A stretch of 64,000 nucleotides of DNA from a virus. Lineage: Duplodnaviria; Caudoviricetes. How positions within the stretch are numbered: position 1 is the stretch's first letter; each line of letters begins with the position of its first letter. This document shows positions 1,610 to 48,689 of this stretch, in pieces. The position numbers and the translations under genes were made by a program. The notes beneath the pieces were generated by a model. It did no database searches. It had not been told where the DNA came from and saw nothing but the letters and a program-made list of their open reading frames with translations. Where the stretch lies: the IMG/VR virus record IMGVR_UViG_3300025362_000477; one strand, written 5' to 3'.

Positions 1610-4489
1610 TTATATACTATTCGTTAACATCTTCTCTAATATCCCATCTGTTGTAATTGCATCCCCAATTATACCATTTACGATATATGCATGGGGTTTA
1701 CTAAACGCCAAAGCAAGAAGGAATGATTCTTTAGAAGGTACATTTTCAATTGATATAATTTGATGATCTTCTTTATGTCGTTCGGGCATCAACCTCCATC
1801 GACTATCACCGCATCTCATCATTTGTGATATAACACATTCAAAATGAACTAACAACAATGTCTTATGTTGAACATATATAGTAAACAAACGTTTTAACAA
1901 TTCTAACGCGTCAATCTTCATTGTTCCATGAAGAAGTTTATTTACAACAGTTAAATCACTTATGATATCCTTCTGATTTTCATCTTCTTGTTCTCTTGAC
2001 ATTACCGCAATTCCACCAGTGTGAAATGTTCGAAGTGTTAATTGAGTTGCAACTTCGCCAAGTGCTTGAGCTGCAATTACACCTATATATTTTGAATGAC
2101 AAGATTTGCTACTTTCTCCATAACATTTCTTGCATATTCGTGAAGATTTACAATATATTGGAGATCTCAATTTTAATGTTTTTCCACATAAATCCAAATA
2201 ATTACTATCAGTTATTAACGTCAAGTCACCATTCTCATCATAATGCCATCTCCCAACTAAACTACGAGCTAATTTAATTGCATCCAATTCATTCTTTTCA
2301 TTTAATAGAATATTCTTTTGAATTTTTTTCTCATTTTCATCCTCAATATGAGATACCATTGATTCAATTTCTTCATCACTAATGTTTCTTGGAATCTTCA
2401 AAGTCAAATAATCCGTAGTACCACAATCATCCAACTCTTCCTCTAATTCAAGATTGGCACTACAATATACTAATTTTCGTGTCAAGTATCCAGATACAGC
2501 TGTATTTAATGCCACATCCAACAAAGCTTTCCGTGATCCATAACAAGAGATAAAATATTCATCCCTCGTTAAACCAGATACTAAATTATGTTTAATTGGT
2601 GTTGGAACAACTTCACCCTTAGAATTTGACATATATCCACGACAGAATATTAACTGATTAGCTTGATCCCATGAACCTCGAGATCCCGATTTAATAAAAT
2701 CAGAATATGGAAATATTTCCTGTACATGTTTCTTATAGGGACTATCGTTTAACTCATGAAATTTATCTACTATACTTTTATCGGGATCATCAACAATTGC
2801 TGATACAACATCATAAGAACCTTCATCATCCAAATCTTTCAATGAAAAGGTAACCCCTCGTAATGTAGTCTCCCGCAATCCAAGTTTCTTAATTTTATCA
2901 ACAACTAATTTCACTACTTCTGGGTCATATCTATGAACAACCTCATTCAGAAGAATATTGATTTCTTTCTTATCAATTATTTTATTGATAAATGGGAAAT
3001 CATCTGGAAACACTTCATTGAATGTAATTCTACTTTTTGTAGTCTGTTTATCAACTTCAATCCCATCAGGTCCTATTTTTATATTACTCCCATCATAATC
3101 ACACACTGTAGATGCATCATCTTTAGTCATTAAATATAAACCAAGCAATATATCCTGATTGATACCAAGAATCATCTTCCCAGTTGAGGGAGAAATCAAA
3201 TTCTTTAAAATAAATATTTTATCATAATTTGATTGTAACGTTTTATCATACAATGAAATATATGCTGCCATCTGATCTCCATCAAAATCAGCATTGTATG
3301 GTTCACATATACATGGATGAATTTTAATAACATCATCAGTATTAATTTTTATTTTAAAAGATAACAATCCCATTCTGTGAAGAGTGGGTTGACGATTTAA
3401 AATAATCAATTGATCTTTCGTAATTTCTTGAACAATCTCCATCAACGAATAATCTTTCATTGCTATACAGGTATTAACATAATCAATAGTCGGGTCATAT
3501 CGCACAAATCGATGTTCCCCAACATGCTTTATTTCAAGTAATCTATTAACAACCTTTAATTTATATAACTCCAATGCCATAGTATATGGGATAGAAGCTT
3601 GGTCTAATTCTAATTCTGGACCAGGACATATCACAGCGCGTGCGGAAAAATCAATTCTTTTACCAAGTATTGATCCTCGAATCAATCCAGACTTTTTAGA
3701 AAATTTTGAAAAGACATAATCATAAAAATTAAATACATATCTCTGCAAATTCTTAAAATTAATCATTTGAATTTCAGAATTCTCATATGTTGAAACATCG
3801 TTTTCTAACATTAAAGCAAAATTCAAAATAGTCATATAGAATTCATTCATTTTATCCCGCATCTGGGCATCTTTAGTTTTTGATACTGGTCGAAACTCAG
3901 GCGGACATATAATAACATTCTTCATGAAGAATTTATGAAGATTTTCATTCACAAACTTCCATGTTGGATTGGTATCCATAAGTCTTTCAGATTCAAATTT
4001 AATCAAATCATATATACCATTAGATCCTGTATATAATATTACACCTTCAGGCAATTCAACTGCTTCATCTTCAATAGTTGGAACATTCACTTTAATATAT
4101 CGTTTCGATTTAACATTAAAATAAAACCCCATTACAGAATCATCATTAATCATTGCATCAACAACTTTACTAATAGTTACTTTACCAGCTCGAGTTATAA
4201 GATATGTCATAATTGGATTGATAACTGGAAAGGGTAACACGATTTTCCCAAACTTTTTTCTACGAAGACTCGAATTTCCAATCTCGACACCGCAAATACT
4301 ACAAGTTTCACCAATCTTTGATCGTCCCCAATATATACCACACCCACAAGTACATGTTCTTACTGGGCCAAAAATTTTTTCTGAAAATAACCCATTGGGG
4401 TGAAACCCTTTTTTAGAATATATCTTATTCGTGGTAACGGCAGGTAGATCAACACAGAAAGCATCCACGTCAAAAAAATCTATTTTCAT
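1610..4489 (-). CDS. rpoC: Multisubunit RNA polymerase beta' subunit, compact and unsplit (959 aa)
   Basis: GLFSEKIFGP, Zn finger CTCGC...CSIC, ILGKRIDFSARAVI, LNRQPTLHR, catalytic YNADFDGDQM, bridge helix SGYLTRKLV, trigger loop GEVATQLTLRTFHTGG. Confidence 0.97.
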   Translation of the reverse strand: MKIDFFDVDAFCVDLPAVTTNKIYSKKGFHPNGLFSEKIFGPVRTCTCGCGIYWGRSKIGETCSICGVEIGNSSLRRKKFGKIVLPFPVINPIMTYLITRAGKVTISKVVDAMINDDSVMGFYFNVKSKRYIKVNVPTIEDEAVELPEGVILYTGSNGIYDLIKFESERLMDTNPTWKFVNENLHKFFMKNVIICPPEFRPVSKTKDAQMRDKMNEFYMTILNFALMLENDVSTYENSEIQMINFKNLQRYVFNFYDYVFSKFSKKSGLIRGSILGKRIDFSARAVICPGPELELDQASIPYTMALELYKLKVVNRLLEIKHVGEHRFVRYDPTIDYVNTCIAMKDYSLMEIVQEITKDQLIILNRQPTLHRMGLLSFKIKINTDDVIKIHPCICEPYNADFDGDQMAAYISLYDKTLQSNYDKIFILKNLISPSTGKMILGINQDILLGLYLMTKDDASTVCDYDGSNIKIGPDGIEVDKQTTKSRITFNEVFPDDFPFINKIIDKKEINILLNEVVHRYDPEVVKLVVDKIKKLGLRETTLRGVTFSLKDLDDEGSYDVVSAIVDDPDKSIVDKFHELNDSPYKKHVQEIFPYSDFIKSGSRGSWDQANQLIFCRGYMSNSKGEVVPTPIKHNLVSGLTRDEYFISCYGSRKALLDVALNTAVSGYLTRKLVYCSANLELEEELDDCGTTDYLTLKIPRNISDEEIESMVSHIEDENEKKIQKNILLNEKNELDAIKLARSLVGRWHYDENGDLTLITDSNYLDLCGKTLKLRSPIYCKSSRICKKCYGESSKSCHSKYIGVIAAQALGEVATQLTLRTFHTGGIAVMSREQEDENQKDIISDLTVVNKLLHGTMKIDALELLKRLFTIYVQHKTLLLVHFECVISQMMRCGDSRWRLMPERHKEDHQIISIENVPSKESFLLALAFSKPHAYIVNGIIGDAITTDGILEKMLTNSI

Positions 4490-7281: not shown

Positions 7282-7498
7282 TTTCCTTCTTAATAAGGAT
7301 TTTATGTTTCACCGATAATGTATTATCAGCATATCCAATCGTAGTTTTTCCATCCTTTTGTTCAATTTCCACACCCATAGAATCAATACCTTTTGTTAAG
7401 GTTCCACTACATTCAGGAGTGCCTAGAGTTAACTTAATTTCTGTATCTCTACAAAAACTAGCAACTGTTTTAGCTCCACGTTTTATATATTTTTTCAT
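7259..7498 (-). CDS. Small beta-rich hypothetical protein (possibly Sm/LSm-like)
   Basis: IKLTL...SGTLTKGIDSMGVEIE strand pattern; weak resemblance only. Confidence 0.4.
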   Translation of the reverse strand: MKKYIKRGAKTVASFCRDTEIKLTLGTPECSGTLTKGIDSMGVEIEQKDGKTTIGYADNTLSVKHKILIKKENDDSENS

Positions 7499-10107
7499 AT
7501 TTTAAATATCCTATCAGGTTCCATATCTTCAGCTGTATTGTGAGTGATAAGTGTGACATTTTTATCTCTAGATATTAATTTTGATAGTTGACAAAATATC
7601 TGTCTATTATCTGCATCTAAAGAATCCAATACTTCATCATAAAATAGATTATGTATTCTCTTATTATATAATCTCTCTGTTAATGATCTTAATGCTTCCA
7701 TACATGCCAAATCAACCATTCTCTTTTCACCACCGGAAAGCATCTTGTGACTATCTGTTCCTTTAATATTATGTAAAACTTTAACTTTAAACTTATCTCG
7801 AATATCCCCACTCTTAGTCTCACTGAGAGTATCAAATGAAACCGTGAATATACCAGGTGCAATTTTCTCTAAAGCTTCTGCCACTGATTCATTCATATGA
7901 GGAATTGCCATATCTATCAACATACTCTTAATTCCAGTATCTGAAAATGACTTTTTCCAAAATAATAAGATTTCTAGTTCCCTTTCGATCAAACCCCTTT
8001 TCGCTATTTCATCTATATGTTTTTGTTCAATAAGTAGTTTCTCAGATTTCTCCACTTCAATTCGAGTATCATCAATATCTTCTTCATTTTCAATGTTGAT
8101 TATATTCGTTTTGACATTATCTAATTCGTACCCCTTACCATTTTTTGAATCAACTAAGATATCATATTGAATTTTTGCATCTGATTCGATCTTAATTTGA
8201 GATTCAACTACACTGAATCTAGCAGAATCGACTTCAGATTTAGATTTTGAAGAATTAGTAATATCAGTCTGAAGTTGTATATACTTTTTATTATGTTCGG
8301 ATTGTTTATTTTGTCTTTCTAAATCAAACCTATTAGCTATTTCAGTTTCATCTATATCACATTTAGATTGAATGTCAGCTGATCTAGTATCAATATCAAG
8401 CTGCCTAGTTCTATAAACTTCAGTCTCGTTATCCATATTAGATTTGAGTTCATTAATCTTAACTTCACTGATCCTTCTATATTCAACAATCTCGTTATTA
8501 AGTAATTCGAGTTTTCTCTGAAATTCTTCAGCTCTCTTATTTTTCTTAATTTTGACATCATTAATTTTATCATCATAATCAGATCGGGCTTTATCCTTCA
8601 CCTCAGTACATTCTTTAAATTCAGCTTTCAGAACAACCATCTTATCTTCAATAGACTTAAATTGAACATTAAGGTCTATTATGATAGCTTTACCTTTAGA
8701 TATATCTTTCTTAATGATCTCAATATCTTCATCACTTGTAAATGGTCTCAAACATTTACTACATGTTGGAGATTCACCTAATAAAGATTCTTCATCTTTT
8801 GTCACTGATAACTGTTTTTCATCAATGTTAGTTTTTATAGATGCAGCATCACTTTTTAATTCAGATGCATTATCTCTTAGATCCTGAGCATTCTTCTCAA
8901 TGATGCCAAGTCTAGTCTCTTTCTCATGCTCAAGTGTAGATGTTGAAAATTCAACTTCTAATTGATTGATAGAGAAATTAACTTGTTGTATCTCTTTCTG
9001 TTTCTCTCTTTCAAAGTCAGAACAATCTTTGGTTATTGGAGTAGTATCATATTTTTTTGATATCTCCGAAATCTTCAAATAATTATCAGCCTTGTCATTT
9101 CTGAGCTTTTCTAATTTAACTTCACATGAATCTTTGACTACCTGTATCTCTTCTCGGCATCTATTAATAAAGTCATTATTTATTACTACTATCTCAGCCG
9201 ACTTTTTATTATCTGATTTATCCAAATCATCAAATAATGTTTTAGAGACCTGATCTAATTTTTGCCGCAATATAATAATTTCAGTTTTCAATTGATCTAA
9301 TTTGTTGGAATCAAATCCCATTTCATTAATCTGAATGGCAATCAATTGTATTTCATTTTCTAATCGTGTTTTAGTTAGTTTATGACTATCTAAACTATCT
9401 TGTTTCTTCTTCTCAGCTAATTCTTTATCAGATATTAATCGTTCAATACTTTGAGATTTCCATTCAATTTCTTGCTTAATTTTATCAATAGAAATAGTCA
9501 CATCTTGAATATCTTTCTTCAATACACCTTCTACTTCAAAAGCATTCTTATAATAAGTATTGTACACCTTAGTCTGTAATACTGAATCAAAAATCTCTTT
9601 CTGTTGAGTATTAGTCAGGGAGGTGAAGAAGTTCTTAACTTGTTGGCTAAAGTTAATCACGTTATGATAAATGTCTTTTGGATAAAGAATCTTTTCAATT
9701 AATTTATATGTGTCAGCTTTTGTTTTCCCGGTTATCGGAATATCATTCTTGAATAAGAAGAATTGATTATGAAATTTCTTATGTTCATAATACAGTTCAG
9801 TTCTATATTCATCAGTGGTATTGGTATCTGAATCAACTACTCGGAAATAAGTTTTAATCTCTAAATCTTTTCCCGTCTTTCGATTTACCATATCTGCAAT
9901 TGTAATTTTATCACCAGGAGGAGCACCATCATCCCCATATAACCCCATCGAAACGGCTTTTGGGATAGTAGATTTTCCTGCTCCATTCTTACCTTGGATC
10001 ACAGTAAAACTATCTATCGGGAAGTCCATTTCCATTTCATAATGGCAACGACAATTCTTCATCGTGATATTGTATATATAAATATCTTGCATTTTATATC
10101 CTCTCAA
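7495..10107 (-). CDS. sbcC: Rad50/SbcC-like ABC ATPase (T4 gp46-like)
   Basis: Walker A GKNGAGKST, long coiled coil with CSKC zinc hook, signature LSGGEKR, Walker B LFYDEVLDSLD. Confidence 0.95.
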   Translation of the reverse strand: MRGYKMQDIYIYNITMKNCRCHYEMEMDFPIDSFTVIQGKNGAGKSTIPKAVSMGLYGDDGAPPGDKITIADMVNRKTGKDLEIKTYFRVVDSDTNTTDEYRTELYYEHKKFHNQFFLFKNDIPITGKTKADTYKLIEKILYPKDIYHNVINFSQQVKNFFTSLTNTQQKEIFDSVLQTKVYNTYYKNAFEVEGVLKKDIQDVTISIDKIKQEIEWKSQSIERLISDKELAEKKKQDSLDSHKLTKTRLENEIQLIAIQINEMGFDSNKLDQLKTEIIILRQKLDQVSKTLFDDLDKSDNKKSAEIVVINNDFINRCREEIQVVKDSCEVKLEKLRNDKADNYLKISEISKKYDTTPITKDCSDFEREKQKEIQQVNFSINQLEVEFSTSTLEHEKETRLGIIEKNAQDLRDNASELKSDAASIKTNIDEKQLSVTKDEESLLGESPTCSKCLRPFTSDEDIEIIKKDISKGKAIIIDLNVQFKSIEDKMVVLKAEFKECTEVKDKARSDYDDKINDVKIKKNKRAEEFQRKLELLNNEIVEYRRISEVKINELKSNMDNETEVYRTRQLDIDTRSADIQSKCDIDETEIANRFDLERQNKQSEHNKKYIQLQTDITNSSKSKSEVDSARFSVVESQIKIESDAKIQYDILVDSKNGKGYELDNVKTNIINIENEEDIDDTRIEVEKSEKLLIEQKHIDEIAKRGLIERELEILLFWKKSFSDTGIKSMLIDMAIPHMNESVAEALEKIAPGIFTVSFDTLSETKSGDIRDKFKVKVLHNIKGTDSHKMLSGGEKRMVDLACMEALRSLTERLYNKRIHNLFYDEVLDSLDADNRQIFCQLSKLISRDKNVTLITHNTAEDMEPDRIFKI

Positions 10108-10508
10108 TCAACTAGTTTACACTCAAATTCATACCCATCATCATCAACATAAGTAATCTTCAATTTTTCAACAACACCTATATTTTTACCATGACCATCA
10201 ATAATATCATTAGGAATCAATCGAATAACATCATCTCTTAAAGTCAGTCCATTTGTAGGTTCCCAATATCTTCGAGCAACAACCTCATCTATAAAATCTC
10301 CCAGATTTGTCGAACCACATGTCAACTCTTCTATATTAGATATAAAGTTAAGGAATCCTTCAGGATAGTATTCATCTCCATCACGCTGGATAGAAGCTTT
10401 CCATTCGAAATAATATTCTCTATAACCATGATACCCAGAAAGTATTATAAAATAAGAATCTCGGGATCTTTCAATAACCCTTTCTCTTGTGATGCTAATC
10501 TTTTTCAT
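10104..10508 (-). CDS. Hypothetical protein between the sbcD-like and sbcC-like genes
   Basis: 134-aa ORF with 4-nt overlaps on both sides. Confidence 0.65.
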   Translation of the reverse strand: MKKISITRERVIERSRDSYFIILSGYHGYREYYFEWKASIQRDGDEYYPEGFLNFISNIEELTCGSTNLGDFIDEVVARRYWEPTNGLTLRDDVIRLIPNDIIDGHGKNIGVVEKLKITYVDDDGYEFECKLVD

Positions 10509-11539
10509 TCAGTAACCCCCTTAGTAAGAATATCATATTTAGCCAGAAAGTCTAAATACTCAACACGATTTTCTTCTGGAATTTCTTTGATTTCCATATA
10601 CTTCTTTAATTGCTCCTCTCGAGTCTGAGTGATTTCAATACCTCGATTGGTAATATCAATCTCAACTGTCTCAACAACAAGTACCCCATCAGAAACTTCA
10701 TCTTTCAATTTCACACCAGACTTATTCTTGATCCGAACTAGATGTCCCTTATTTCTGGCAATTTCAGCCTTCTGTAGAATATCAGCTTTCTGTTCTATGG
10801 TTTCAATAGTATATTCTTTAAATTCTCGGAATCCAGTAATTGGAATCTGCTCAACCTCTAAAGTTTCAGTATCATAGATAAGAAACATCTTATGTTCATT
10901 TTTATCTCCCCAATCTCGATGATATATACTTCCAGCATAATAAATTCTCACATTATCATTTTTTAAATATTGAGGTGAATGATAATGCCCCAGAAGAGCA
11001 AGTTTGAATTTTTTCGATATATCATTCATTGTTATTTTATCAACACCACTCAATCCGGAAGCTAAATGAGCTTCATTCAATCCTAGATGAGAAATCAATA
11101 TATCAGTCGGTTCACAATCAATAATCTCATCCATAAAATTTTTAGTATGTGGGATATAAGTAATATTCCCAATAACCAATGGGCGATATGGAATACATTG
11201 CACATTTGGATATGCATCAAAAACAGAAATCGCGCTCTTCTGATTTTCTCCAACTGATGAATTATCATGATTTCCCGATATTATAGTAAAATTGATATCT
11301 GCATGTCTAATTAAAAATTCAGAAAATTGATTTTGTGCTACTGTATAAATAATAGACTTATCATTAATCAAATCACCCAAAATATCAATATCAATTATAT
11401 GTCTTTTCCGACATTCGCTAATTATAAATTCAAGGGTTTTCATGATCAGCCCCAACCGAATAGGTAAATTCAAATCATCTAACAAATCCGATTCAAATCC
11501 ACTAAGGTGGATATCACCCACTGCAGCTCTCTTTTTCAT
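10505..11539 (-). CDS. sbcD: Mre11/SbcD-like nuclease (T4 gp47-like)
   Basis: GDIH, LGDL, GNHD, ISHLG and GHYH metallophosphoesterase motifs; adjacent to the Rad50-like gene. Confidence 0.93.
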   Translation of the reverse strand: MKKRAAVGDIHLSGFESDLLDDLNLPIRLGLIMKTLEFIISECRKRHIIDIDILGDLINDKSIIYTVAQNQFSEFLIRHADINFTIISGNHDNSSVGENQKSAISVFDAYPNVQCIPYRPLVIGNITYIPHTKNFMDEIIDCEPTDILISHLGLNEAHLASGLSGVDKITMNDISKKFKLALLGHYHSPQYLKNDNVRIYYAGSIYHRDWGDKNEHKMFLIYDTETLEVEQIPITGFREFKEYTIETIEQKADILQKAEIARNKGHLVRIKNKSGVKLKDEVSDGVLVVETVEIDITNRGIEITQTREEQLKKYMEIKEIPEENRVEYLDFLAKYDILTKGVTE

Positions 11540-27150: not shown

Positions 27151-28653
27151 CTACATTATCATTGTATTTTCTCGGCATTGAGTAAATGTCATATCTCTCA
27201 TTATATCACCATTATAAAATACATCTTCCAATATATCATCACCAGGTGTATCAAATGGGACAGTCATAAACTTATTACCAGACATATTATTTCGAATCAA
27301 CTTGAAACGACCACGTTTAGATGCTTTACTAATATCCAAAGGTTTCTTCCATACATCCTTCCATGTATCTTCTCCGATTTGACGGGCACTACATTTAAAC
27401 GCAAATCGCTGATCATCTCGATTAACTTTCTGTAACAGTCCACCACCACAACCGAATCCAGTATTCTGAGCTGCATATTCATTCATGGTAATTGTATTGT
27501 GGATTCCTCGCATACCATTATAATCAATACCATCACCCCATATTGATCCAACCTTTGGATTCAATACAAGATAATTCTTTGAGTTTCGACTAGTGCCAAA
27601 TACAGATTCAAGCATCTGATTAACTTCTAATGATACACTATCAGGATCTCCACTATCAGGACGAAAAACTAACTTTCCATCTCTAGCTAAAATTTCATCT
27701 TTAAGTTCACGAGCATACTGAAGAATGAATCTCTGATAATTATAACTATCAATCACACATGCTACAACACCAGTTGGATTTTCTCGAACCAAATTATGAA
27801 AAATATCCTTTTCACCTGATTCTCCATTCGCAGTCATGATACTATGTTCAGTAGCAATGATTGAATATCCAAGTCCGTCATATGAAGGCATGTTGTAATA
27901 TTTTCTGATATGCTTAAGAGCCGATACAGTATCAGTACCTAAGAAATTCAGAAGATGCCCAGAACCCTGATGAACGGATGATTCATAACTTGAAACACCC
28001 CTAGCGCCAAAATCATGTAACATATATGGTAATACAGCATCTATCATATTATCATCACAAGTTTTATCAAGGTAATGACGAATCATTTTCTTAATCTCGT
28101 AACTCAATGTTGCTGTAGTTGATGATGCCCATACTCGAGTTAATAATGTTTCAACATAATTAGTAAGAGAAGCACATATCGGACCACCATTATTCTTAAC
28201 AGTCATTAAGACATTTGACTTCTCAACTGGAAGACCTTCAGGGACAGCCCGAATAGTTAAAGGAAGCTTTCCACCCCACTCTTTAAGAATATGTTGCCAC
28301 ATTTCTTTATTGAATGTAGTGTGATTTCCAAAATGAGAAAAGAATAACTCATCAGCATCATCAATCAATTCTTGAGTAACAACTATACCAGTCAAGTATT
28401 TCTTAACGATATACTGCAGACCATAGAATATAGTGTTATTATATTTCGCTCCATTTCTAGATTCAAAATATGAATAAATTGATATCGTATCTCTTGGATA
28501 TAAAGGCCAATGCCCTACCTTGTAACTATCAACATCAGTAATAATACTATATGTATCCATCCCTCGATCAGTTACTATTTTATTGATTTCATCCAGTGAA
28601 AAATAATCACGCTTTCCATATAAATTAAACAATTCTTGTTTACAATCTATCAT
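27151..28653 (-). CDS. nadV: Nicotinamide phosphoribosyltransferase
   Basis: DSYKVGHW, LHDFGARG, ATEHS, VIDSY, RPDSGDP, GDGI, GGGLLQKVNRD. Confidence 0.95.
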   Translation of the reverse strand: MIDCKQELFNLYGKRDYFSLDEINKIVTDRGMDTYSIITDVDSYKVGHWPLYPRDTISIYSYFESRNGAKYNNTIFYGLQYIVKKYLTGIVVTQELIDDADELFFSHFGNHTTFNKEMWQHILKEWGGKLPLTIRAVPEGLPVEKSNVLMTVKNNGGPICASLTNYVETLLTRVWASSTTATLSYEIKKMIRHYLDKTCDDNMIDAVLPYMLHDFGARGVSSYESSVHQGSGHLLNFLGTDTVSALKHIRKYYNMPSYDGLGYSIIATEHSIMTANGESGEKDIFHNLVRENPTGVVACVIDSYNYQRFILQYARELKDEILARDGKLVFRPDSGDPDSVSLEVNQMLESVFGTSRNSKNYLVLNPKVGSIWGDGIDYNGMRGIHNTITMNEYAAQNTGFGCGGGLLQKVNRDDQRFAFKCSARQIGEDTWKDVWKKPLDISKASKRGRFKLIRNNMSGNKFMTVPFDTPGDDILEDVFYNGDIMRDMTFTQCRENTMIM

Positions 28654-32691: not shown

Positions 32692-33175
32692 TATAATCTG
32701 ATCTATTTTTAAGATAATCTGTCTCCATTTTTGATATTCTTATTAATTTGAACTGATAGCATGCTATGTAAAATCCATAACTATGAAGTCTTAAAATTTT
32801 GTATGATGCATTTAATTTCCAACTGTCCCACCATCTAAGGGGTAATAACCATATTTTAAACCGTGGATATCTAATGTTTAACATGATAGCACTGTTGTTC
32901 TTCCATCTCCTTAGAGAATCCTCAAACCCCTCCAAACTACCATCAGAGAAATGAAAATCAACATCATGAACAGCTGAAAGTTCTATAAAATGTCTAAATA
33001 TCCAAGTCAGAGTATATCGTAAAATTTCCGGAAATGAATCAGGACCAAAGTAATTGAATATTTTTATAAATTCAACATCCGATAATTTATCAAATTCTAA
33101 TGACCTTTCAAGATCCCATTCAATAACATTTTTCTTAGCTTGTAATTTCGATGCAAATTCTAATTTTTTATCCAT
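32684..33175 (-). CDS. Hypothetical protein
   Basis: Start moved to MDKK because the longer ORF overlaps tRNA-Val. Confidence 0.6.
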   Translation of the reverse strand: MDKKLEFASKLQAKKNVIEWDLERSLEFDKLSDVEFIKIFNYFGPDSFPEILRYTLTWIFRHFIELSAVHDVDFHFSDGSLEGFEDSLRRWKNNSAIMLNIRYPRFKIWLLPLRWWDSWKLNASYKILRLHSYGFYIACYQFKLIRISKMETDYLKNRSDYSG

Positions 33176-33191
33176 GATATTTTTACCTCTA

Positions 33192-33268
33192 TGGTAGTCG
33201 GAGTGAGATTCGGACTCACGACAACATGTATGTAAAACAGGAACTCTAACCAACTGAGCTACCCGACT
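33192..33268 (-). tRNA. tRNA-Val(UAC), slightly non-canonical
   Basis: Loop TT TAC AT, T-loop TCCGAAT, one anticodon-stem mismatch, encoded CCA. Confidence 0.8.
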
Positions 33269-33270
33269 AT

Positions 33271-33720
33271 TTATTGCATAAAAACAATATAATTAAATTT
33301 TTTCATTTGATTTAAATATAAATTGTAAATTTGTTCTTTTTTCTTCTCTGAGAGAAATGATGCACCATCAACTATAATCATATTAAATAGATTCTCATCA
33401 TTATTGATCAAAATTTTACTAAATGCAAAAAATGTAGAAAATCTCGGATATATGCATGGATGAAAAATTGGATCACTCTTAAATCTAATTAATTGATCAT
33501 TATTCTGACATATAACAAGAGCGTTAAATTTATTCTCATTTAATAAAATTTTGATAGCTCGAGTATGACCAACTTGTCTCGAACAACCAATTTTAATAGT
33601 ACAAAATTCTTTTAAATATGCCTTGGGTGAAATTGCATATAATCTAGAGGGACATACCTTTTGAGAATCTGTAGATTCATCTAATAAGAGATTTAAACAT
33701 TCATATATTCTATTACTCAT
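33271..33720 (-). CDS. Hypothetical protein (degenerate P-loop-like)
   Basis: GCSRQVGHTRA...IIVDGAS. Confidence 0.5.
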   Translation of the reverse strand: MSNRIYECLNLLLDESTDSQKVCPSRLYAISPKAYLKEFCTIKIGCSRQVGHTRAIKILLNENKFNALVICQNNDQLIRFKSDPIFHPCIYPRFSTFFAFSKILINNDENLFNMIIVDGASFLSEKKKEQIYNLYLNQMKKFNYIVFMQ

Positions 33721-33762
33721 AGGAACAACTCCTTTTTATACTGACTAATATAATTATATTAT

Positions 33763-34281
33763 TTACATTGAAACGCTATTCTTTCCACCAAAGGTAGATT
33801 CCAATCTACCACCATGTTCTCTAGATAATTGTTCCGCTAACATTCTTGATCTAGCTTCACTCCCATCCAGAATAGCCATGTTTCGTTCTTCAAAATCTTC
33901 CGTTGGTTCAGTTGGTTCAGAACCAACGACCATAGATGCACCACTATTTTGACCTACTGCCATTTCTTCTCGAACAATCTCTGGCAAAACCCCTCTCATT
34001 TTAGCCAATGTTGCTATAACTTGTGCTTGATACCTGGCATCATTCGGAGTGTTCTTATCCATTTCATTAACTGTCCGTGGACTTGATGGGGTTGATGGTC
34101 GAATGACAGTCTCATGTACATATTGTTTTTTCTTCCCAAACTCAACTGGGTCACAATCAAAAAATACCTGTTTACCACTATCAAAAATAACACATCCAAA
34201 TGTTCTAGCTTTGTTATATTTTACAGATTCAACAATATCACCACATTCAGGTATATGTTTCTTTGAAACTATTTTAGCCAT
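33763..34281 (-). CDS. Hypothetical protein
   Basis: 172-aa ORF with RBS. Confidence 0.65.
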   Translation of the reverse strand: MAKIVSKKHIPECGDIVESVKYNKARTFGCVIFDSGKQVFFDCDPVEFGKKKQYVHETVIRPSTPSSPRTVNEMDKNTPNDARYQAQVIATLAKMRGVLPEIVREEMAVGQNSGASMVVGSEPTEPTEDFEERNMAILDGSEARSRMLAEQLSREHGGRLESTFGGKNSVSM

Positions 34282-34490
34282 GATTAAATCCTTTTAATTT
34301 ATTCTAGAATGGAATGAATCCTGACACATCCTTACCTGTTGGGCTACTAACATCATATCCAGAACCAAATAAAGCCTTATCAATAACATCCCATGCGTCT
34401 TGTTCAGTTTCATATTGAACTGGTTTATTACCATACCAACTACCATGTGTATTTACAATATAATTAACTTCTTTCATAGTTATCCTTCAA

Positions 34491-34567
34491 TGGCGGACCG
34501 AGGTGGACTTGAACCACCAACACGGAAATTTTCAGTCTCCTGCTCTGCCGATTGGAGCTACCGATCC
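34491..34567 (-). tRNA. tRNA-Phe(GAA)
   Basis: GGAGA CT GAA AA TTTCC arm, TTCAAGT loop, CCA. Confidence 0.92.
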
Positions 34568-34731
34568 TTTCAAATTAAACTTTTTTGATCTTTACTGTCT
34601 TAATCTTCCATCCAGTGTAAGGCTTTCTATTACATGCAAACAAATCTATCATAATCATCAATATACAATACATCACGATCTTTATAATTATCAATCTTAT
34701 CCACTGGGCTGGGTTGCGGGCAAAGCCCGTA

Positions 34732-35736
34732 TTAGAATGAATAGCCGAGCCCGAGGATGTAACGGTAATCGCTTTTGTCAAGACCAGCTGCAGGCTTGGA
34801 GTTGTGTTCCATTTCGGCTTTTGCCTCCATGATCCAGCTGCCGACAAGTTTTGTCTGTAAACCGGCATCGGCATAGACGAGGAAGATGTCGCTGCGTTCG
34901 GTGCTGGGCAGGAATGTGACGTTATGGAATGCTTTGACATTCTCCCAGAGCTGCTTGTCCAGGTGATAGGCCAGGCGGATAGCCATATAGTCGCGAGTTT
35001 CAGAGGGATCTGAGTACTCTGCATGTACATATGAGAGGCCTGCCTCTGTGTTGAAGTTAAGATCGTCACTTTCGACCCATTGATAACCAACACCGGCACC
35101 CAGAGTGACGCGCATATCCAGGTTGTTAATACGGTCCTTCTCATAAAGAATGTTTCCGTAGAGGTAGAACTGGTCACTTAAAAAGTAGTCATATTTGCCA
35201 TTGATGAACCACTTGTCTTCGGTTGTGTCGTCCGTACCGGTGGATTGATCGCGTTTCTTGTCAAAGCGGTAGCCAGCTCCAAGGGAGATGCGGTCGTCTT
35301 TACGGCGCAGCTGGGCATTAGCATTAATGCTGGCGGTATCGCTATGTGTATTGCCGCGGGCGAAGTTGGCTCCTGCGACCAGGCTTCCTGTCCATTTCGG
35401 TGCTTCGGGGTTTACTTCGGCAATGTCGGTTAGTGGCAGGGCTGTATTAGATGCTGCCAGGGTTATGGTTCCTGCTTTGGCAGCAACTGTTTTAGTTTCA
35501 ACACGTGTGCCATCAGGCTTTTCAATAGTAATGGATTCATCTGTGGAGAATGTCTGGATGTCATCCATCTTTAACGAGAGTTTGCCTGCGACCTTTGATT
35601 CAAAGGCCATCTTTCCGCCGGAGACTTTCTTAACGGTTCCGGTCAGCTTGTCGCCGGATTTAAAGAGGATTACATCTCCGAACACCGAAAAGGCACTCAG
35701 TAAACCAACAGCTATCCATCCGTAATGTTTGTTCAT
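34732..35736 (-). CDS. DUF481/YdiY-like outer-membrane beta-barrel protein, high GC
   Basis: Signal peptide, N-terminal beta domain (GDKLTG), amphipathic strands, C-terminal LGLGYSF (terminal Phe); GC far above the flanks. Confidence 0.85.
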   Translation of the reverse strand: MNKHYGWIAVGLLSAFSVFGDVILFKSGDKLTGTVKKVSGGKMAFESKVAGKLSLKMDDIQTFSTDESITIEKPDGTRVETKTVAAKAGTITLAASNTALPLTDIAEVNPEAPKWTGSLVAGANFARGNTHSDTASINANAQLRRKDDRISLGAGYRFDKKRDQSTGTDDTTEDKWFINGKYDYFLSDQFYLYGNILYEKDRINNLDMRVTLGAGVGYQWVESDDLNFNTEAGLSYVHAEYSDPSETRDYMAIRLAYHLDKQLWENVKAFHNVTFLPSTERSDIFLVYADAGLQTKLVGSWIMEAKAEMEHNSKPAAGLDKSDYRYILGLGYSF

Positions 35737-35757
35737 GTTATTTCCCTTTAATTGTGT

Positions 35758-36054
35758 TTATTCCGTTGAAATCGTTGAAGTTACCACTTGGGACCGCCGG
35801 GCTGATGCATGCTGCCACCGTTTATCAGCAGGGATCCCTATGCGTTTATGTATAACCTTTAATTCAGGATAATTTTCAAGACCTATCTCATACATTTTAA
35901 CTCGTTCAAAATAATCTAATATATCACCCGTTTCTTTTCCATTCTTGTCAATAATTTTAAAATTATATGGGTCATCATCAACTGCTCTAATAAAGAATCC
36001 TACTGGTATACCACGAAATTCCTTTAGCACTTCAAGTTTGTATTCTGTTCTCAT
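35758..36054 (-). CDS. Hypothetical protein (3' end runs into GC-rich DNA)
   Basis: 98-aa ORF. Confidence 0.55.
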   Translation of the reverse strand: MRTEYKLEVLKEFRGIPVGFFIRAVDDDPYNFKIIDKNGKETGDILDYFERVKMYEIGLENYPELKVIHKRIGIPADKRWQHASARRSQVVTSTISTE

Positions 36055-36072
36055 TATTGTCCTTTCAATAAA

Positions 36073-36483
36073 TTACCAATATTCTTTATGATCACATCGA
36101 GTACATTTGAAATATGCACCATGCTGGTCAGAATCAACAATTTCCATATCATGACCATTCAATTTGCAATATTCTATTTTTGCTTCTATACGATGCTGTG
36201 TATGATCTATCTTAGCTTGATTGATTTTCTCTACCATACTATATGGGAGATGCATTGTTACTTGCATGGTATCATCGAATGAACCCTTACAAACATCAAC
36301 TTGAATATCCTTAATAGATACTCTAGTAACATGATCCCCAATAGATTTAGCTAAATTCTCCATTTGTTCTTTAGTTATATCATCAGAAAAATAACTATTC
36401 AAACTATCCTTTATATGAGAGCTGATTCTATCAATTATACCTTCTGGAGTTTCAGATTTCAAACTAGCTACATATTTACTCAT
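36073..36483 (-). CDS. Hypothetical protein with a C-terminal zinc finger
   Basis: CKLNGH...CTRC. Confidence 0.6.
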   Translation of the reverse strand: MSKYVASLKSETPEGIIDRISSHIKDSLNSYFSDDITKEQMENLAKSIGDHVTRVSIKDIQVDVCKGSFDDTMQVTMHLPYSMVEKINQAKIDHTQHRIEAKIEYCKLNGHDMEIVDSDQHGAYFKCTRCDHKEYW

Positions 36484-36498
36484 TAATTATCTCCAATA

Positions 36499-36573
36499 TG
36501 GGGCGGTATACGGGAATCGGACCCGCGCACGAGGAACCACAGTCCTCTGTTCTACCATTGAACTAATACCGCC
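36499..36573 (-). tRNA. tRNA-His(GUG) with encoded G-1
   Basis: GAGGA CT GTG GT TCCTC arm; T-loop TCCGATT; CCA. Confidence 0.88.
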
Positions 36574-36607
36574 ATCTTTATTTATTCCTTTAATGTGAAT
36601 CCATTTC

Positions 36608-36823
36608 TCATGAACAATCTCTAGATTCCGCGATATACTGGATTATCTCAATCTCAAGATTTATCTCTCCGATGAATGCTTCATTTTTTTGAATTTCCAA
36701 ATTCATTTCATTTCGTTTAAGTTCAAGTGCTGATCTCTGAGTCATAAGTGATCTGGAAGCTTTATCCAAATTATCAGAATTAGTTAGTTCGTATTTCTTT
36801 TTCATCGTATCTATAATAGACAT
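36608..36823 (-). CDS. Small coiled-coil hypothetical protein
   Basis: 71-aa ORF. Confidence 0.55.
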   Translation of the reverse strand: MSIIDTMKKKYELTNSDNLDKASRSLMTQRSALELKRNEMNLEIQKNEAFIGEINLEIEIIQYIAESRDCS

Positions 36824-36853
36824 ATTAATTTCCTTTTGTTTTGTGTTCAGTGT

Positions 36854-37210
36854 TTATTTTGGAATTTCAGTTTTAAATTTGTGTGTGTTAACTTCTAGTA
36901 GTATATCTAGAAGTTCGAGTGTTTGTAAATCTACTGATGCCTGCCATATATCACCTACTTTAAAATAACGATGTAGATAATATCTAGTCTTAAATTCATA
37001 CTTATGATACCCAGTCTTACTTAAAATTGAATAGAAACAATCATCACAGTCAGGGATATCACATATCAGATCTAGACCAAACTCCCAATGCATTCTAAAT
37101 TCAAGAAGTGGAGTTCTTATTCTTTCAAGTTTTAATGCTTCCCTATTAGACTGATTAATTAATACTTCTTTAATCTCTTCTGATTTTAGTTGTTTTACTT
37201 CCATTGCCAC
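36854..37210 (-). CDS. Hypothetical protein
   Basis: 118-aa ORF, CxxxxCxxC. Confidence 0.55.
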   Translation of the reverse strand: MAMEVKQLKSEEIKEVLINQSNREALKLERIRTPLLEFRMHWEFGLDLICDIPDCDDCFYSILSKTGYHKYEFKTRYYLHRYFKVGDIWQASVDLQTLELLDILLEVNTHKFKTEIPK

Positions 37211-37619
37211 TGGTGGCTATGTCTTCATTCCTATCGGTCCCATCAGTATTCTCCTCAATCTCGTTAAGTATTGTTTCATCTATAAATCCATTTTCAAGTG
37301 CTGAGATATAACAATCATCATCAACAATATCATCTTCTTCATCAAAAATTCCTGGATATTTCTTTTTAGCTTCTGAATACCATTCGTCCTGAGACTTATT
37401 ACATGCAGAATGTTTTTCATTCATCACAGTATACAAAGCTGAGATCTTTAATTGTAATTCTTCAACCTTAACACTTTTCTGTGATACACTAAGTTTATGT
37501 TCATCTAAAAATGCCTGAGTTTCAATCTGTTGTCTTTGGAATTCCTTCTCTACATCACATAATTGCTCATATGTTAAATCTTTATATTGTTCTCGTGCTC
37601 GATCTAATACTTTAGACAT
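37170..37619 (-). CDS. Acidic hypothetical protein
   Basis: 149-aa ORF with GGAG RBS. Confidence 0.6.
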   Translation of the reverse strand: MSKVLDRAREQYKDLTYEQLCDVEKEFQRQQIETQAFLDEHKLSVSQKSVKVEELQLKISALYTVMNEKHSACNKSQDEWYSEAKKKYPGIFDEEDDIVDDDCYISALENGFIDETILNEIEENTDGTDRNEDIATSGNGSKTTKIRRD

Positions 37620-37640
37620 ATAATTCTCCGATCATAAATA

Positions 37641-37714
37641 TACTCCCGCCGGGATTCGAACCCGGAACACAAGGTTTTAGGGACCTCTGCTCTAGCCAGT
37701 TGAGCTACGAGAGC
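37641..37714 (-). tRNA. tRNA with CUA anticodon (putative amber suppressor); CCA not encoded
   Basis: GCTCTCG/CGGGAGT acceptor, GCTC/GAGC D-stem, GAGGT-CC CTA AA-ACCTT anticodon arm, CCGGG-TTCGAAT-CCCGG T-arm. Confidence 0.78.
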
Positions 37715-37722
37715 GTTTGAAA

Positions 37723-37938
37723 TCATAGTAATTGTAAATTTGAAAATATCTTTTTGTCAGTTACAGTTGCAATTGCAGTTAATTGATTTCCAATATCAGG
37801 TTCTTTAAATCCAACCCAATCCATGTTTCTTCTAGTCAATTTATCTCCCCAGTTAACCAGACATTCCTCAGAATCAACACTTAAATAAATTAGAGTGCCT
37901 TTCCAATCACCATGCAAGCCATGCATAATATTCATCAA
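37723..37938 (-). CDS. Peptidyl-tRNA hydrolase II (PTH2)-like C-terminal fragment
   Basis: TLIYLSV...FKEPDIGNQLTAIA...LQLL resembles PTH2-like phage proteins; the N-terminal half is absent (in-frame TGA upstream). Confidence 0.45.
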   Translation of the reverse strand: MMNIMHGLHGDWKGTLIYLSVDSEECLVNWGDKLTRRNMDWVGFKEPDIGNQLTAIATVTDKKIFSNLQLL

Positions 37939-38340
37939 TCATACTATCTCCTCATATGGTATAACTACTGAAAGTGTAGCACAATCTCGATCTTTTCTAT
38001 CTTGCATCTCATTATATTTAGATATGATTGGATTAATAGTATCCAATATTCGATTATGGTCTATCAATATATCTTCATGATTGGATATTAAATGACTATT
38101 AACTGCAACATGAATCATATCAGTTTCAACATCTCGTCTCACCTGATCCAAAAAATCAAAATTCCGATATGATACTTTGGGATTCCGATCTTTAATCTCA
38201 AGATAATTCTTAACATATAATGCTGGATCAAAATCATCAGCAGCAAACTCAGCTATAACTGTATCAGGTTTGAATTTTCTAAACCGAATAACTAACGGTT
38301 TCCATACCCATTCTTTCAAGAATACTACTATATCTATCAT
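37939..38340 (-). CDS. Hypothetical protein
   Basis: 133-aa ORF. Confidence 0.55.
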   Translation of the reverse strand: MIDIVVFLKEWVWKPLVIRFRKFKPDTVIAEFAADDFDPALYVKNYLEIKDRNPKVSYRNFDFLDQVRRDVETDMIHVAVNSHLISNHEDILIDHNRILDTINPIISKYNEMQDRKDRDCATLSVVIPYEEIV

Positions 38341-48323: not shown

Positions 48324-48689
48324 TGGTGGAAGCGGGGAGAATTGAACTCCCGTCCCAATCAGTATTCATCATACCTTCGTTCACGTGTGTAGTCTCTATT
48401 TTCTTTTGCTGAAACATAGCCGCACTGAGAATCTCTTCAAGAGGGTTGTTATACCACACTCAGTTCCCTCGTTATTGTCTTTTACCCAGACAACCAGGGG
48501 ATCTACCTTAGTAATCGACACTAATAACATCTACCAAGATTATCTCGATGCGTTCATGGGCTTCAATTAAGCTGCCATTGCGAATTCAGTGTTACCACTT
48601 ATTCTTAGAAGGCTTTTTACGAGGCCAACCTTACCATACCTCGACACGCAGAAATGATTCCAATTGAAAGGTCGAATCCAGACGCTCCC
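48324..48689 (-). ncRNA. ssrA: tmRNA; tag peptide (A)GNTEFAMAA
   Basis: 5' GGGAGCGTCTGGATTCGAC, G3:U70 acceptor, 3' GGGAGTTCAATTCTCCCCGCTTCCACCA, tag ORF at 48596-48567. Confidence 0.95.

What the first reader, a model, noticed from the sequence alone, without database searches (positions are those of the whole stretch)
34700..35845. High-GC, host-like outer-membrane beta-barrel gene dropped into the tRNA region
Seen in sequence: sampled 60-nt lines run 38-60% GC against about 30% in the flanks. The ORF has a signal peptide, barrel-type strands and a terminal Phe (BAM signal). GC-rich DNA begins inside the 3' end of the upstream ORF (about 35845-35760), and the gene ends about 165 nt from tRNA-Phe. 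Inference: recent capture from a Gram-negative host. It could alter uptake, serve as a decoy or replacement receptor, or mediate superinfection exclusion, and it should identify the host lineage.
Basis: partly seen in the sequence, partly recalled or inferred. Interest (0 to 1): 0.6.

Follow-up and report, generated by a model that had tools for sequence, protein, structure and literature searches.

The report
Host outer-membrane gene freshly captured by phage
A giant uncultured phage carries a 1.1-kb piece of bacterial chromosome, 99.4% identical to a Kiritimatiellia-type genome and encoding an intact outer-membrane barrel protein; it is a very recent gene theft that names the phage's likely host, but nothing yet shows the phage benefits from it.

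Summary
Window 34707-35833 (1,127 bp, 49.5% GC, GC3 0.54) is the only strong GC island in a 141.5-kb, 32.5% GC jumbo-phage record. It holds one intact minus-strand gene (34732-35736, 334 aa). The protein has a signal peptide, a roughly 95-aa periplasmic all-beta domain and a 12-strand DUF481 (YdiY-type) barrel ending in Phe.

The whole segment matches a cellular metagenome contig and MAG (GCA_964468035.1) with 7 mismatches and no gaps. In that MAG it lies in a chromosomal locus (sulfatase, DUF481, nucleotidyltransferase, radical SAM) conserved across relatives down to 63% identity. The closest named relatives are Kiritimatiellia.

The captured piece includes the last 17 codons of the sulfatase gene, the native intergenic region and a post-stop hairpin. 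Both ends are sharp and lack homology, so this is illegitimate recombination, bacterium to phage. Contigs from two other samples span each junction, and one is a second phage strain, so it is not an assembly chimera.

Function in the phage is unproven. The one clearly phage-derived change, P212L, hits a proline kept in 113 of 120 homologues. I read it as a very young moron-like acquisition, probably expressed by read-through. It is more likely a passenger (about 55%) than an adapted surface-remodelling gene (about 40%). This scan had already noted the same stretch in another window.

The parts
34707..35833 (-). Captured bacterial segment: 1,127 bp, 49.5% GC.
   Evidence: blastn and a base-by-base alignment to L002/L003 positions 929-2055 give 7 mismatches and 0 gaps. 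Identity stops abruptly at both ends.
34732..35736 (-). Intact gene for a 334-aa DUF481 (YdiY-type) outer-membrane protein, P0001. The stop codon is TAA.
   Evidence: Pfam PF04338, E 4.2e-50, 171 bits, residues 121-334. There are 419 homologues and the best is 99% identical.
35677..35736 (-). Signal peptide, residues 1-20.
   Evidence: The sequence has a basic N-terminus followed by a hydrophobic core. In the model it is a low-confidence helix at residues 5-13. Cleavage is inferred, not shown.
35395..35676 (-). N-terminal all-beta domain, residues 21-114: two small SH3/Sm-like beta-barrel subdomains. It is predicted to be periplasmic.
   Evidence: Domain model pLDDT is 92. Only generic small-barrel matches were found, Z up to 7.9 over residues 1-48 of the domain. 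No Pfam family matches.
34735..35394 (-). 12-strand beta-barrel, residues 115-334, ending in GLGYSF.
   Evidence: DSSP finds 12 strands between residues 115 and 333; whole-model mean pLDDT is 87. Foldseek finds OmpG, FapF, NanC, KdgM and autotransporter beta-domains, with E about 1e-6 to 1e-5.
35101..35103 (-). Codon 212, CTG (Leu) in the phage against CCG (Pro) in the donor and all outgroups. This is the one clearly phage-derived substitution.
   Evidence: Polarised with L007, L008 and L001. Pro occurs in 113 of 120 homologues and Leu in none. The allele is also present in the independent contig L010.
35781..35833 (-). Fragment of the donor's upstream sulfatase gene: the last 17 codons plus the stop. 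It has no function here.
   Evidence: It aligns to L002 929-981, the 3' end of an ORF that is 85% identical to the L001 sulfatase.
35737..35780 (-). Donor intergenic region, carrying the native ribosome-binding stretch (AAAGGGAAAT) ahead of the ATG.
   Evidence: Alignment. A sigma-70 consensus scan found no promoter-like site in it.
34717..34729 (-). Small donor hairpin (CGGGC-TTT-GCCCG) just after the stop codon. It has no T-run.
   Evidence: Sequence. A hairpin stands at the same place in L001. The terminator scan did not call it.
35758..36054 (-). Phage ORF of 98 aa. Its first 73 codons are phage DNA (GC3 0.19). Its last 25 codons are donor DNA read out of the sulfatase frame.
   Evidence: It has no homologue other than itself among 5.8 billion proteins.
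34491..34567 (-). tRNA-Phe (GAA), 164 nt downstream of the captured gene and on the same strand.
   Evidence: ARAGORN and Rfam.

Best explanation
A jumbo phage (32.5% GC, with a tRNA array and split RNA-polymerase beta-like genes) very recently picked up 1,127 bp of its host's chromosome by illegitimate, non-homologous recombination while replicating in a Kiritimatiellia-type bacterium.

The piece was cut without regard to gene borders. It carries the last 17 codons of a sulfatase gene, the intergenic region with its ribosome-binding site, the complete gene of a DUF481/YdiY-type outer-membrane protein, and a small post-stop hairpin. It landed in the tRNA region, a few codons before the end of a small phage ORF, and it is now inherited by at least two phage strains.

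These steps are shown: the origin, the direction of transfer, how recent it is, the exact breakpoints, inheritance in the phage population, and the family and fold of the protein.

These steps are inferred. The gene lies on the same strand as every neighbouring phage gene and tRNA, so phage transcripts probably read through it. It is then translated from its own ribosome-binding site, exported by Sec, and inserted by BAM into the outer membrane of the infected cell as extra copies of a host-type 12-strand barrel.

My odds for what this does for the phage are as follows. About 55%: little or nothing yet, a young moron-like passenger that is tolerated. About 40%: an advantage through the cell surface, such as exclusion, a decoy, or continued supply of the channel. 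About 5%: something else.
For: Origin and direction:
- Window 34707-35833 equals L002/L003 929-2055, with 7 mismatches in 1,127 bp and no gaps.
- The next-closest cellular DNA is only about 79% identical.
- L003 belongs to an NCBI MAG. The locus sulfatase, DUF481, DUF6036 nucleotidyltransferase, B12/radical-SAM recurs in L001 (flanking proteins 85% and 88% identical), L017 and L018.
- The donor contig is 49% GC throughout, against 32.5% for the phage.
- GC3 and RSCU match the donor, not the phage.

Host lineage:
- All named homologues from 68% down to 60% identity are Kiritimatiellia.
- The best GTDB species representative is a Kiritimatiellia MAG at 68%.

Real, not chimeric:
- L009 (sample ERZ27315402) spans the left junction.
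- L010 (sample ERZ27315937) spans the right junction and is 100% identical to the window.
- L009 is a second strain, with one SNP in phage DNA and the donor's base at 35763.
- The exact protein and the junction-spanning ORF are on record from four sources, on 2-3 contigs up to 230 kb.
- No shared k-mer exists at either breakpoint.

Protein:
- Pfam DUF481, E 4e-50.
- Confident model of an N-terminal domain plus 12 strands.
- Fold matches to monomeric outer-membrane channels.

Passenger reading:
- A useless sulfatase fragment was co-captured, and a phage ORF's tail was overwritten.
- Base composition has not drifted towards the phage's.
- The one derived substitution, P212L, falls in the family's most conserved motif.
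- No DUF481 was found in 50,697 GenBank phages or in IMG/VR.
- There is no PHROG match and no PADLOC match.
Against: Support across the junctions therefore rests on short-read contigs from other samples.

No relative of the phage with an empty site was found. As a result, the insertion point, and whether phage DNA was lost there, are inferred.

The donor MAG's own taxonomy was not available to me. 'Kiritimatiellia' rests on the nearest named homologues, at 68% identity or less.

Expression is untested. No promoter-like site lies in the captured upstream 97 bp.

Against the passenger reading: the ORF is intact and is kept in two strains across several samples. One DUF481 protein from an uncultured phage exists in BFVD, so such genes may be retained by phages more than once. 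With only 7 differences, selection cannot be measured either way.
Confidence: 0.8

Rival explanations
1. Adapted surface-remodelling gene. The phage makes a slightly altered copy (P212L) of a host surface barrel. This would block or divert other phages, or its own progeny, acting as superinfection exclusion or a decoy or replacement receptor.
For: The ORF is intact and keeps its signal peptide, C-terminal Phe and native ribosome-binding site. It is inherited in two phage strains in different samples. In cells this protein diverges faster (74% identity) than its neighbours (85-88%), as exposed surface proteins often do. The derived P212L is a non-conservative change found in no homologue. Phage-borne outer-membrane barrels are common in BFVD, including one DUF481. 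Morons that act on receptors are well documented (PMC3594210).
Against: No DUF481 protein is a known phage receptor; an E. coli ydiY knockout changed nothing for the BASEL phages. A near-identical copy of a protein the host already makes changes amount, not kind. There is no match to known defence or exclusion families. A single substitution cannot be told apart from drift. No conservation in other phages was found.
Confidence: 0.25
2. Auxiliary host-maintenance gene. The phage keeps supplying an outer-membrane channel or envelope protein after shutting off host transcription. This would sustain uptake, efflux or envelope integrity through a long latent period in a slow-growing host.
For: The gene is host-identical, complete and co-oriented with phage genes. 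In three of five cellular loci examined it lies just downstream of a sulfatase. In Pseudoalteromonas, DUF481 mutations altered growth under nutrient limitation and sensitivity to fusidic acid (bioRxiv 10.1101/2024.12.11.627208), so the family affects envelope permeability.
Against: Outer-membrane barrels are generally stable and need little resupply within one infection cycle; this is general knowledge, not tested here. The cellular function of the family is unknown. The sulfatase linkage is lost at 63% and 55% identity. P212L in the core motif argues against strict conservation of function. The gene is not recurrent in phages.
Confidence: 0.15
3. Assembly chimera. Bacterial reads were wrongly joined into the phage contig.
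For: The island's composition is wholly bacterial and its identity to a co-occurring bacterium is very high. No reads could be inspected.
Against: It is an insertion with phage DNA on both sides, so it would need two false joins. There is no shared sequence at either breakpoint for a k-mer assembler to cross. Contigs from two other samples reproduce each junction base for base, one from a different phage strain. The phage copy differs from the MAG copy at 7 sites.
Confidence: 0.01
4. Reverse transfer. The gene is originally the phage's and was left in the bacterium.
For: None beyond the shared sequence itself.
Against: The gene has the bacterium's GC and codon usage, not the phage's. It sits in a locus that stays syntenic across bacteria down to 63% protein identity. 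The shared tract includes the 3' end of the bacterial sulfatase gene, in frame there and out of frame in the phage. Hundreds of cellular homologues exist, against essentially none in phages.
Confidence: 0.01

Closest known systems
DUF481 / YdiY family (Pfam PF04338; annotated 'putative salt-induced outer membrane protein'; E. coli YdiY)
   Same: There is a strong profile match over the barrel (E 4e-50). The predicted barrel has 12 strands, and the protein has a signal peptide and a C-terminal aromatic residue. The cellular function is unknown for the whole family.
   Different: This PVC-type subfamily carries an extra N-terminal all-beta domain of about 95 aa that has no Pfam family. The copy described here lies in a phage and carries Leu in place of the nearly invariant Pro212.
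Phage morons that encode envelope proteins (lambda Lom, Cor of HK022/N15/phi80, HK97 gp15), as reviewed in PMC3594210
   Same: It is extra DNA of foreign base composition inserted between phage genes, and it encodes a protein aimed at the host envelope.
   Different: Classical morons sit in temperate phages, carry their own promoter and terminator, and are expressed from the prophage. Here no integrase was found in the 44% of the genome held, no promoter was recognised, and the donor locus is still identifiable at 99.4% identity. There is no sequence relation to Lom or Cor.
DUF481 domain-containing protein of an uncultured Caudovirales phage (BFVD A0A6J5SX85, 248 aa)
   Same: It is the only other phage-associated DUF481 I found, and it is the best structural match among viral models (E 4.5e-11, TM 0.51/0.65).
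   Different: Identity is only 14%. It is barrel-only in length (248 aa) and lacks the N-terminal domain. It represents an unrelated acquisition, and its context is unknown.
Monomeric 12- to 14-strand outer-membrane channels NanC, KdgM and OmpG (PDB 2wjq, 4fqe, 2f1c)
   Same: They are the closest solved folds to the barrel: TM by target 0.53-0.68, aligned over 215-268 columns.
   Different: Sequence identity is 11-15% and a profile search finds no sequence match in the PDB. The resemblance is of barrel architecture only and does not show substrate or function.

Membership tests
DUF481 / YdiY (PF04338) | Profile match above Pfam's gathering score. | tested here: met
   171.1 bits against a cut-off of 21.1; E 4.2e-50; profile positions 3-210 of 210. 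Confirmed in the whole record.
DUF481 / YdiY (PF04338) | Outer-membrane beta-barrel architecture with an N-terminal signal peptide and a C-terminal aromatic residue. | tested here: met
   12 strands at residues 115-333 with mean pLDDT 87. Fold matches to outer-membrane barrels. Terminal ...GYSF and a hydrophobic leader are read from the sequence.
DUF481 / YdiY (PF04338) | Conserved core motif R-x-x-P-G-x-G-x-G-Y-Q-W. | tested here: inconclusive
   All positions are kept except Pro212, which is Leu in the phage. Pro occurs in 113 of 120 homologues and Leu in none. The consequence is unknown.
DUF481 / YdiY (PF04338) | Actual location in the outer membrane. | not testable with these tools
   This needs fractionation or proteomics of infected cells.
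Phage moron | Base composition different from the surrounding phage genes. | tested here: met
   49.5% against 32.5% GC; GC3 0.54 against 0.23 +/- 0.04.
Phage moron | Absent from the same position in related phages (an 'extra' insertion). | not testable with these tools
   No relative sharing the flanking ORFs or flanking DNA was retrievable. Records close to the window are withheld.
Phage moron | Own promoter and terminator. | tested here: inconclusive
   The consensus scan found no sigma-70-like site in 35737-35833 and no terminator after the gene. The post-stop hairpin has no T-run. The scan does not cover PVC-type or phage promoters.
Phage moron | Expressed from a prophage (temperate carrier). 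| tested here: inconclusive
   No tyrosine or serine recombinase was found in the 141.5 kb held, but that is only about 44% of the genome.
Auxiliary (host-derived) phage gene | Clear cellular origin. | tested here: met
   The donor locus is identified at 99.4% DNA identity.
Auxiliary (host-derived) phage gene | Recurrent retention across phages, which would imply selection. | tested here: not met
   No DUF481 was found by tblastn in 50,697 GenBank phage records or by pattern scan of IMG/VR. There is no PHROG match. One distant case exists in BFVD.
Known superinfection-exclusion or defence proteins | Sequence match to a catalogued family. | tested here: not met
   No PADLOC hit at E <= 0.01.

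The most novel reading that the evidence does not exclude
The phage keeps, and has already begun to modify (P212L in the core motif), a copy of a host surface barrel that is its own receptor or a competitor's. It would use this copy during infection as an exclusion device or decoy. That would be the first function-linked role for a DUF481 protein, and the first such device known for phages of the PVC group.
Probability: 0.15. Interest if true: 0.7.

Novelty: new member of a known kind. Interest (0 to 1): 0.45.

Why it matters
Three things make it useful rather than surprising.

First, it is an unusually clean snapshot of a phage stealing a host gene. Donor locus, both breakpoints, the co-captured junk (a sulfatase tail) and the damage to a phage ORF are all still readable. 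This shows that such captures can occur by homology-free recombination and start out untidy.

Second, a phage can acquire host DNA only inside a cell it replicates in. The 99.4% match therefore ties an uncultured jumbo phage to a specific uncultured Kiritimatiellia-type species. A full-text search found no paper describing a jumbo phage of that group: one paper holds both terms and I did not open it.

Third, it offers a natural experiment on whether a freshly captured outer-membrane gene is kept, changed or lost.

Tried and rejected
- Empty-site relatives:
  - The search for related loci with three flanking ORFs found nothing usable.
  - The upstream ORF has no homologue but itself among 5.8 billion proteins.
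  - Exact scans of JGI metagenome contigs and IMG/VR for the phage-side sequence next to each junction found nothing.
  - The scan's own index shows no look-alike stretch.
  - Records near the window's own genome are withheld, so the 230-kb contig that carries the exact protein could not be read.
- GenBank phages: no DNA match to 33000-38000 and no tblastn match to the protein.
- IMG/VR scan with the family alignment: nothing.
- NCBIfam, PHROGs, PADLOC: nothing for the protein.
- PDB by sequence profile: nothing.
- N-terminal domain: folded alone, it gives only generic SH3/Sm-like small-barrel matches (Z up to 7.9), which say nothing about function.
- Neighbourhood analysis: it does not give the cellular gene a function. 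The sulfatase linkage is not kept at lower identity.
- Integron cassette origin: this was suggested by the attC island noted elsewhere in this phage. I rejected it because the segment is a contiguous slice of a syntenic chromosomal locus, including a gene fragment, with no repeat or hairpin at its ends.
- Prophage boundary: rejected, because phage DNA continues for tens of kb on both sides.
- My first RSCU figure for the donor used a wrong frame offset. It was corrected.
- dN/dS: there are too few changes to mean anything (3 synonymous changes; 2 altered codons).
Full report
**What is there**

The window is the reverse strand of positions 45546-109545 of a 141,546-bp IMG/VR virus record that CheckV rates about 44% complete. 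It is AT-rich (32.5% GC). Nearly all genes are on the minus strand. It carries 18 tRNA genes and a tmRNA, split RNA-polymerase beta-like proteins, SbcCD and a nicotinamide phosphoribosyltransferase. Its best-conserved protein is under 50% identical to anything in GenBank phages. So this is a jumbo phage with no close sequenced relative.

Against this background, 34700-35800 reads 45-55% GC in 200-nt windows. It is the only island above 45% in the whole record. It contains one long minus-strand ORF, 34732..35736, of 334 aa. Its GC3 is 0.54, against 0.23 +/- 0.04 for 16 phage ORFs. The other ORFs listed inside the island are overlapping out-of-frame ORFs of the kind GC-rich DNA produces.

**What the protein is**

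Residues 121-334 match Pfam DUF481 (PF04338) at E 4e-50. This is the family of E. coli YdiY, usually annotated 'putative salt-induced outer membrane protein'.

An AlphaFold2 model built on 35 homologues (mean pLDDT 87) shows three parts:
- a leader helix;
- an all-beta domain at residues 21-101;
- twelve long antiparallel strands from residue 115 to 333.

The closest solved folds are monomeric 12- to 14-strand outer-membrane channels and translocators: OmpG, FapF, NanC, KdgM and autotransporter beta-domains. No PDB entry matches by sequence.

Folded alone (pLDDT 92), the N-terminal part is two small SH3/Sm-like barrels with only generic matches and no Pfam family. By the usual topology of even-stranded barrels it should be periplasmic; this is inference. 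The leader, the terminal ...GYSF and the fold fit a Sec-exported, BAM-inserted outer-membrane protein.

The family's cellular role is unknown. The only experimental hints I found are these:
- In Pseudoalteromonas, DUF481 mutations arose under nutrient limitation and impaired growth in fusidic acid (bioRxiv 10.1101/2024.12.11.627208).
- An E. coli ydiY knockout had no effect on any BASEL phage (10.1101/2021.03.08.434280).

**Where it came from**

Among 5.8 billion proteins there are 419 homologues. All named ones from 68% down to 60% identity are from Kiritimatiellia MAGs, followed by Lentisphaerae and a planctomycete.

One protein is 99% identical. It lies on an ENA contig (L002) and on a contig of NCBI MAG GCA_964468035.1 (L003). 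At the DNA level, window 34707-35833 equals L002 929-2055, with 7 mismatches in 1,127 bp and no gaps. Similarity ends abruptly on both sides. The next-closest cellular DNA is about 79% identical.

The cellular contig is 49% GC throughout. Its gene order is sulfatase, DUF481, DUF6036 nucleotidyltransferase, then B12/radical-SAM. The same order recurs around the 74%-identical homologue, where the flanking proteins are 85% and 88% identical. It also recurs around the 68% and, in part, the 63% homologues.

So the gene is a long-standing chromosomal resident of that bacterial clade, and the transfer ran from bacterium to phage.

The best GTDB species representative is a Kiritimatiellia MAG at 68%. 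Of the 401 Kiritimatiellia representatives searched, 26 carry the subfamily, and none is closer. The donor species is therefore represented only by the unnamed MAG. Calling it Kiritimatiellia is an inference from its nearest named relatives. It fits earlier notes of this scan that call the phage a salt-lake phage (not checked by me), and it fits the hypersaline origin of Kiritimatiella (PMC5148204).

**How it was captured**

The shared tract ignores gene borders. It begins inside the codon for Ala, 17 codons before the end of the donor's sulfatase gene. It then runs through the 44-bp intergenic region and the whole DUF481 gene. It stops 25 bp after the stop codon, 9 bp beyond a small hairpin.

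I see no direct repeat, no inverted repeat and no microhomology longer than about three bases at the ends. This points to illegitimate recombination rather than a cassette, a transposon or homologous exchange.

On the phage side, the insertion sits in the tail of a 98-aa ORF (35758..36054). Its first 73 codons are phage DNA (GC3 0.19). Its last 25 codons are sulfatase DNA read in another frame. If nothing was deleted, the original ORF ended three codons after the junction. This is inference, because no empty-site relative could be found.

**Is it real?**

I could not obtain reads, but the evidence at contig level is strong:
- A 621-bp contig from sample ERZ27315402 (L009) covers window 36089-35469, across the left junction.
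- A 1,793-bp contig from sample ERZ27315937 (L010) covers 35533-33741, across the right junction, tRNA-Phe and the next phage ORFs, at 100% identity.
- L009 is a second strain. It differs by one base in phage DNA (35891), and at 35763 it keeps the donor's base where the window has changed.
- The exact protein and the junction-spanning ORF are on record from JGI, Logan, ENA and MetaClust, on two to three contigs up to 230 kb.
- A k-mer assembler has no shared sequence on which to make either join.

The insertion is therefore real, and it is inherited in a phage population seen in several samples.

**How recent, and what has changed**

Divergence from the MAG copy is 0.6%, and base composition is not ameliorated at all. 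I polarised the seven differences with three outgroups:
- One (35197) arose on the MAG side.
- One (35102) arose on the phage side.
- One (35763) arose within the phage population.
- The remaining four are ambiguous.

The donor was therefore a close strain of the MAG's species rather than that exact genome.

The phage-side change turns Pro212 into Leu in the motif R-x-x-P-G-x-G-x-G-Y-Q-W. Pro is present in 113 of 120 homologues and Leu in none. The allele is also in L010, so it is not a sequencing error. It may reflect relaxed constraint or a new property; one substitution cannot decide.

**What it does**

The steps that are shown stop at 'an intact host-type outer-membrane protein gene sits in a phage'.

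Inferred steps: the gene is co-oriented with all its neighbours and lies between tRNA genes, so read-through transcription is likely. It keeps its own ribosome-binding stretch. No sigma-70-like promoter and no terminator was recognised in the captured DNA.

I weigh three readings.

1. A young, tolerated passenger (about 55%). It is favoured by:
   - the untidy capture;
   - the overwritten phage ORF;
   - the hit on a near-invariant residue;
   - the absence of DUF481 from GenBank phages and IMG/VR;
   - the absence of PHROG or PADLOC matches.
2. A surface-remodelling role such as exclusion or a decoy (about 25%). It is favoured by:
   - persistence in two strains;
   - the faster divergence of this protein than its neighbours in cells;
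   - the many outer-membrane barrels in uncultured phages, including one DUF481.
3. Continued supply of a host channel during a long infection (about 15%).

None of these can be settled from sequence.

**Comparison with what is known**

In kind, this is a moron-like or auxiliary host-gene capture. Envelope-directed examples such as lambda Lom and the Cor proteins are long known (PMC3594210).

It differs from classical morons in three ways: it sits in what looks like a virulent jumbo phage (no integrase in the part held), it lacks a recognisable promoter and terminator, and it is caught so early that the donor locus is still identifiable.

I class it as a new member of a known kind. Its main value is the host link and the clean view of the capture event. 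The same stretch was already noted in this scan from an overlapping window (e1-5320402), with the same reading.

Noticed in passing
window 37641-37714 (-); also 34304-34306: There is a tRNA with a CUA anticodon, an amber-suppressor type that ARAGORN labels 'Pyl'. The ENA gene call on the independent contig L010 read the small ORF starting at 34477 with TAG=Q. That reads through the TAG at 34304-34306 for 10 more codons. The DUF481 gene itself ends in TAA and has no in-frame TAG.
   Followed up: no
L001 and L002 (cellular loci): Between the two bacteria, the DUF481 protein has diverged to 74% identity while its flanking sulfatase and radical-SAM proteins are 85% and 88% identical. This pattern is expected for an exposed surface protein under diversifying pressure.
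   Followed up: partly
L001 11129-14056; L018 7822-10011; L002 2056-2160: The spot just downstream of the cellular DUF481 gene is variable. One genome has a 975-aa gene there, another has a transposase, and the donor contig has a run of heptamer-like tandem repeats (GTCAGTT-type). The phage's right breakpoint lies at the edge of this variable spot.
   Followed up: no
window 34575-34706 (-): Phage DNA immediately after the right junction stays open for 44 codons in one frame, and this frame includes a 32-codon hydrophobic ORF. By my rough estimate the chance of this in 33% GC DNA is about 3-4%. It could be a small phage gene or the remnant of one.
   Followed up: no
window 48324-48689 (-): A phage-encoded tmRNA with tag peptide GNTEFAMAA scores 118 bits on the Rfam model. 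It lies within the tRNA array.
   Followed up: no
window 1610-4489, 7495-11539, 27151-28653 (-): The window encodes RNA-polymerase beta-like proteins of the kind found in phiKZ-like jumbo phages, an SbcCD-like nuclease pair and a nicotinamide phosphoribosyltransferase.
   Followed up: no
samples ERZ27315402, ERZ27315937, ERZ27316330, ERZ27317826: Phage-junction contigs, the donor contig and an 88% relative all come from ENA assemblies with neighbouring accession numbers and the same contig naming. This suggests one study in which the phage and the donor bacterium co-occur. The study was not identified.
   Followed up: no
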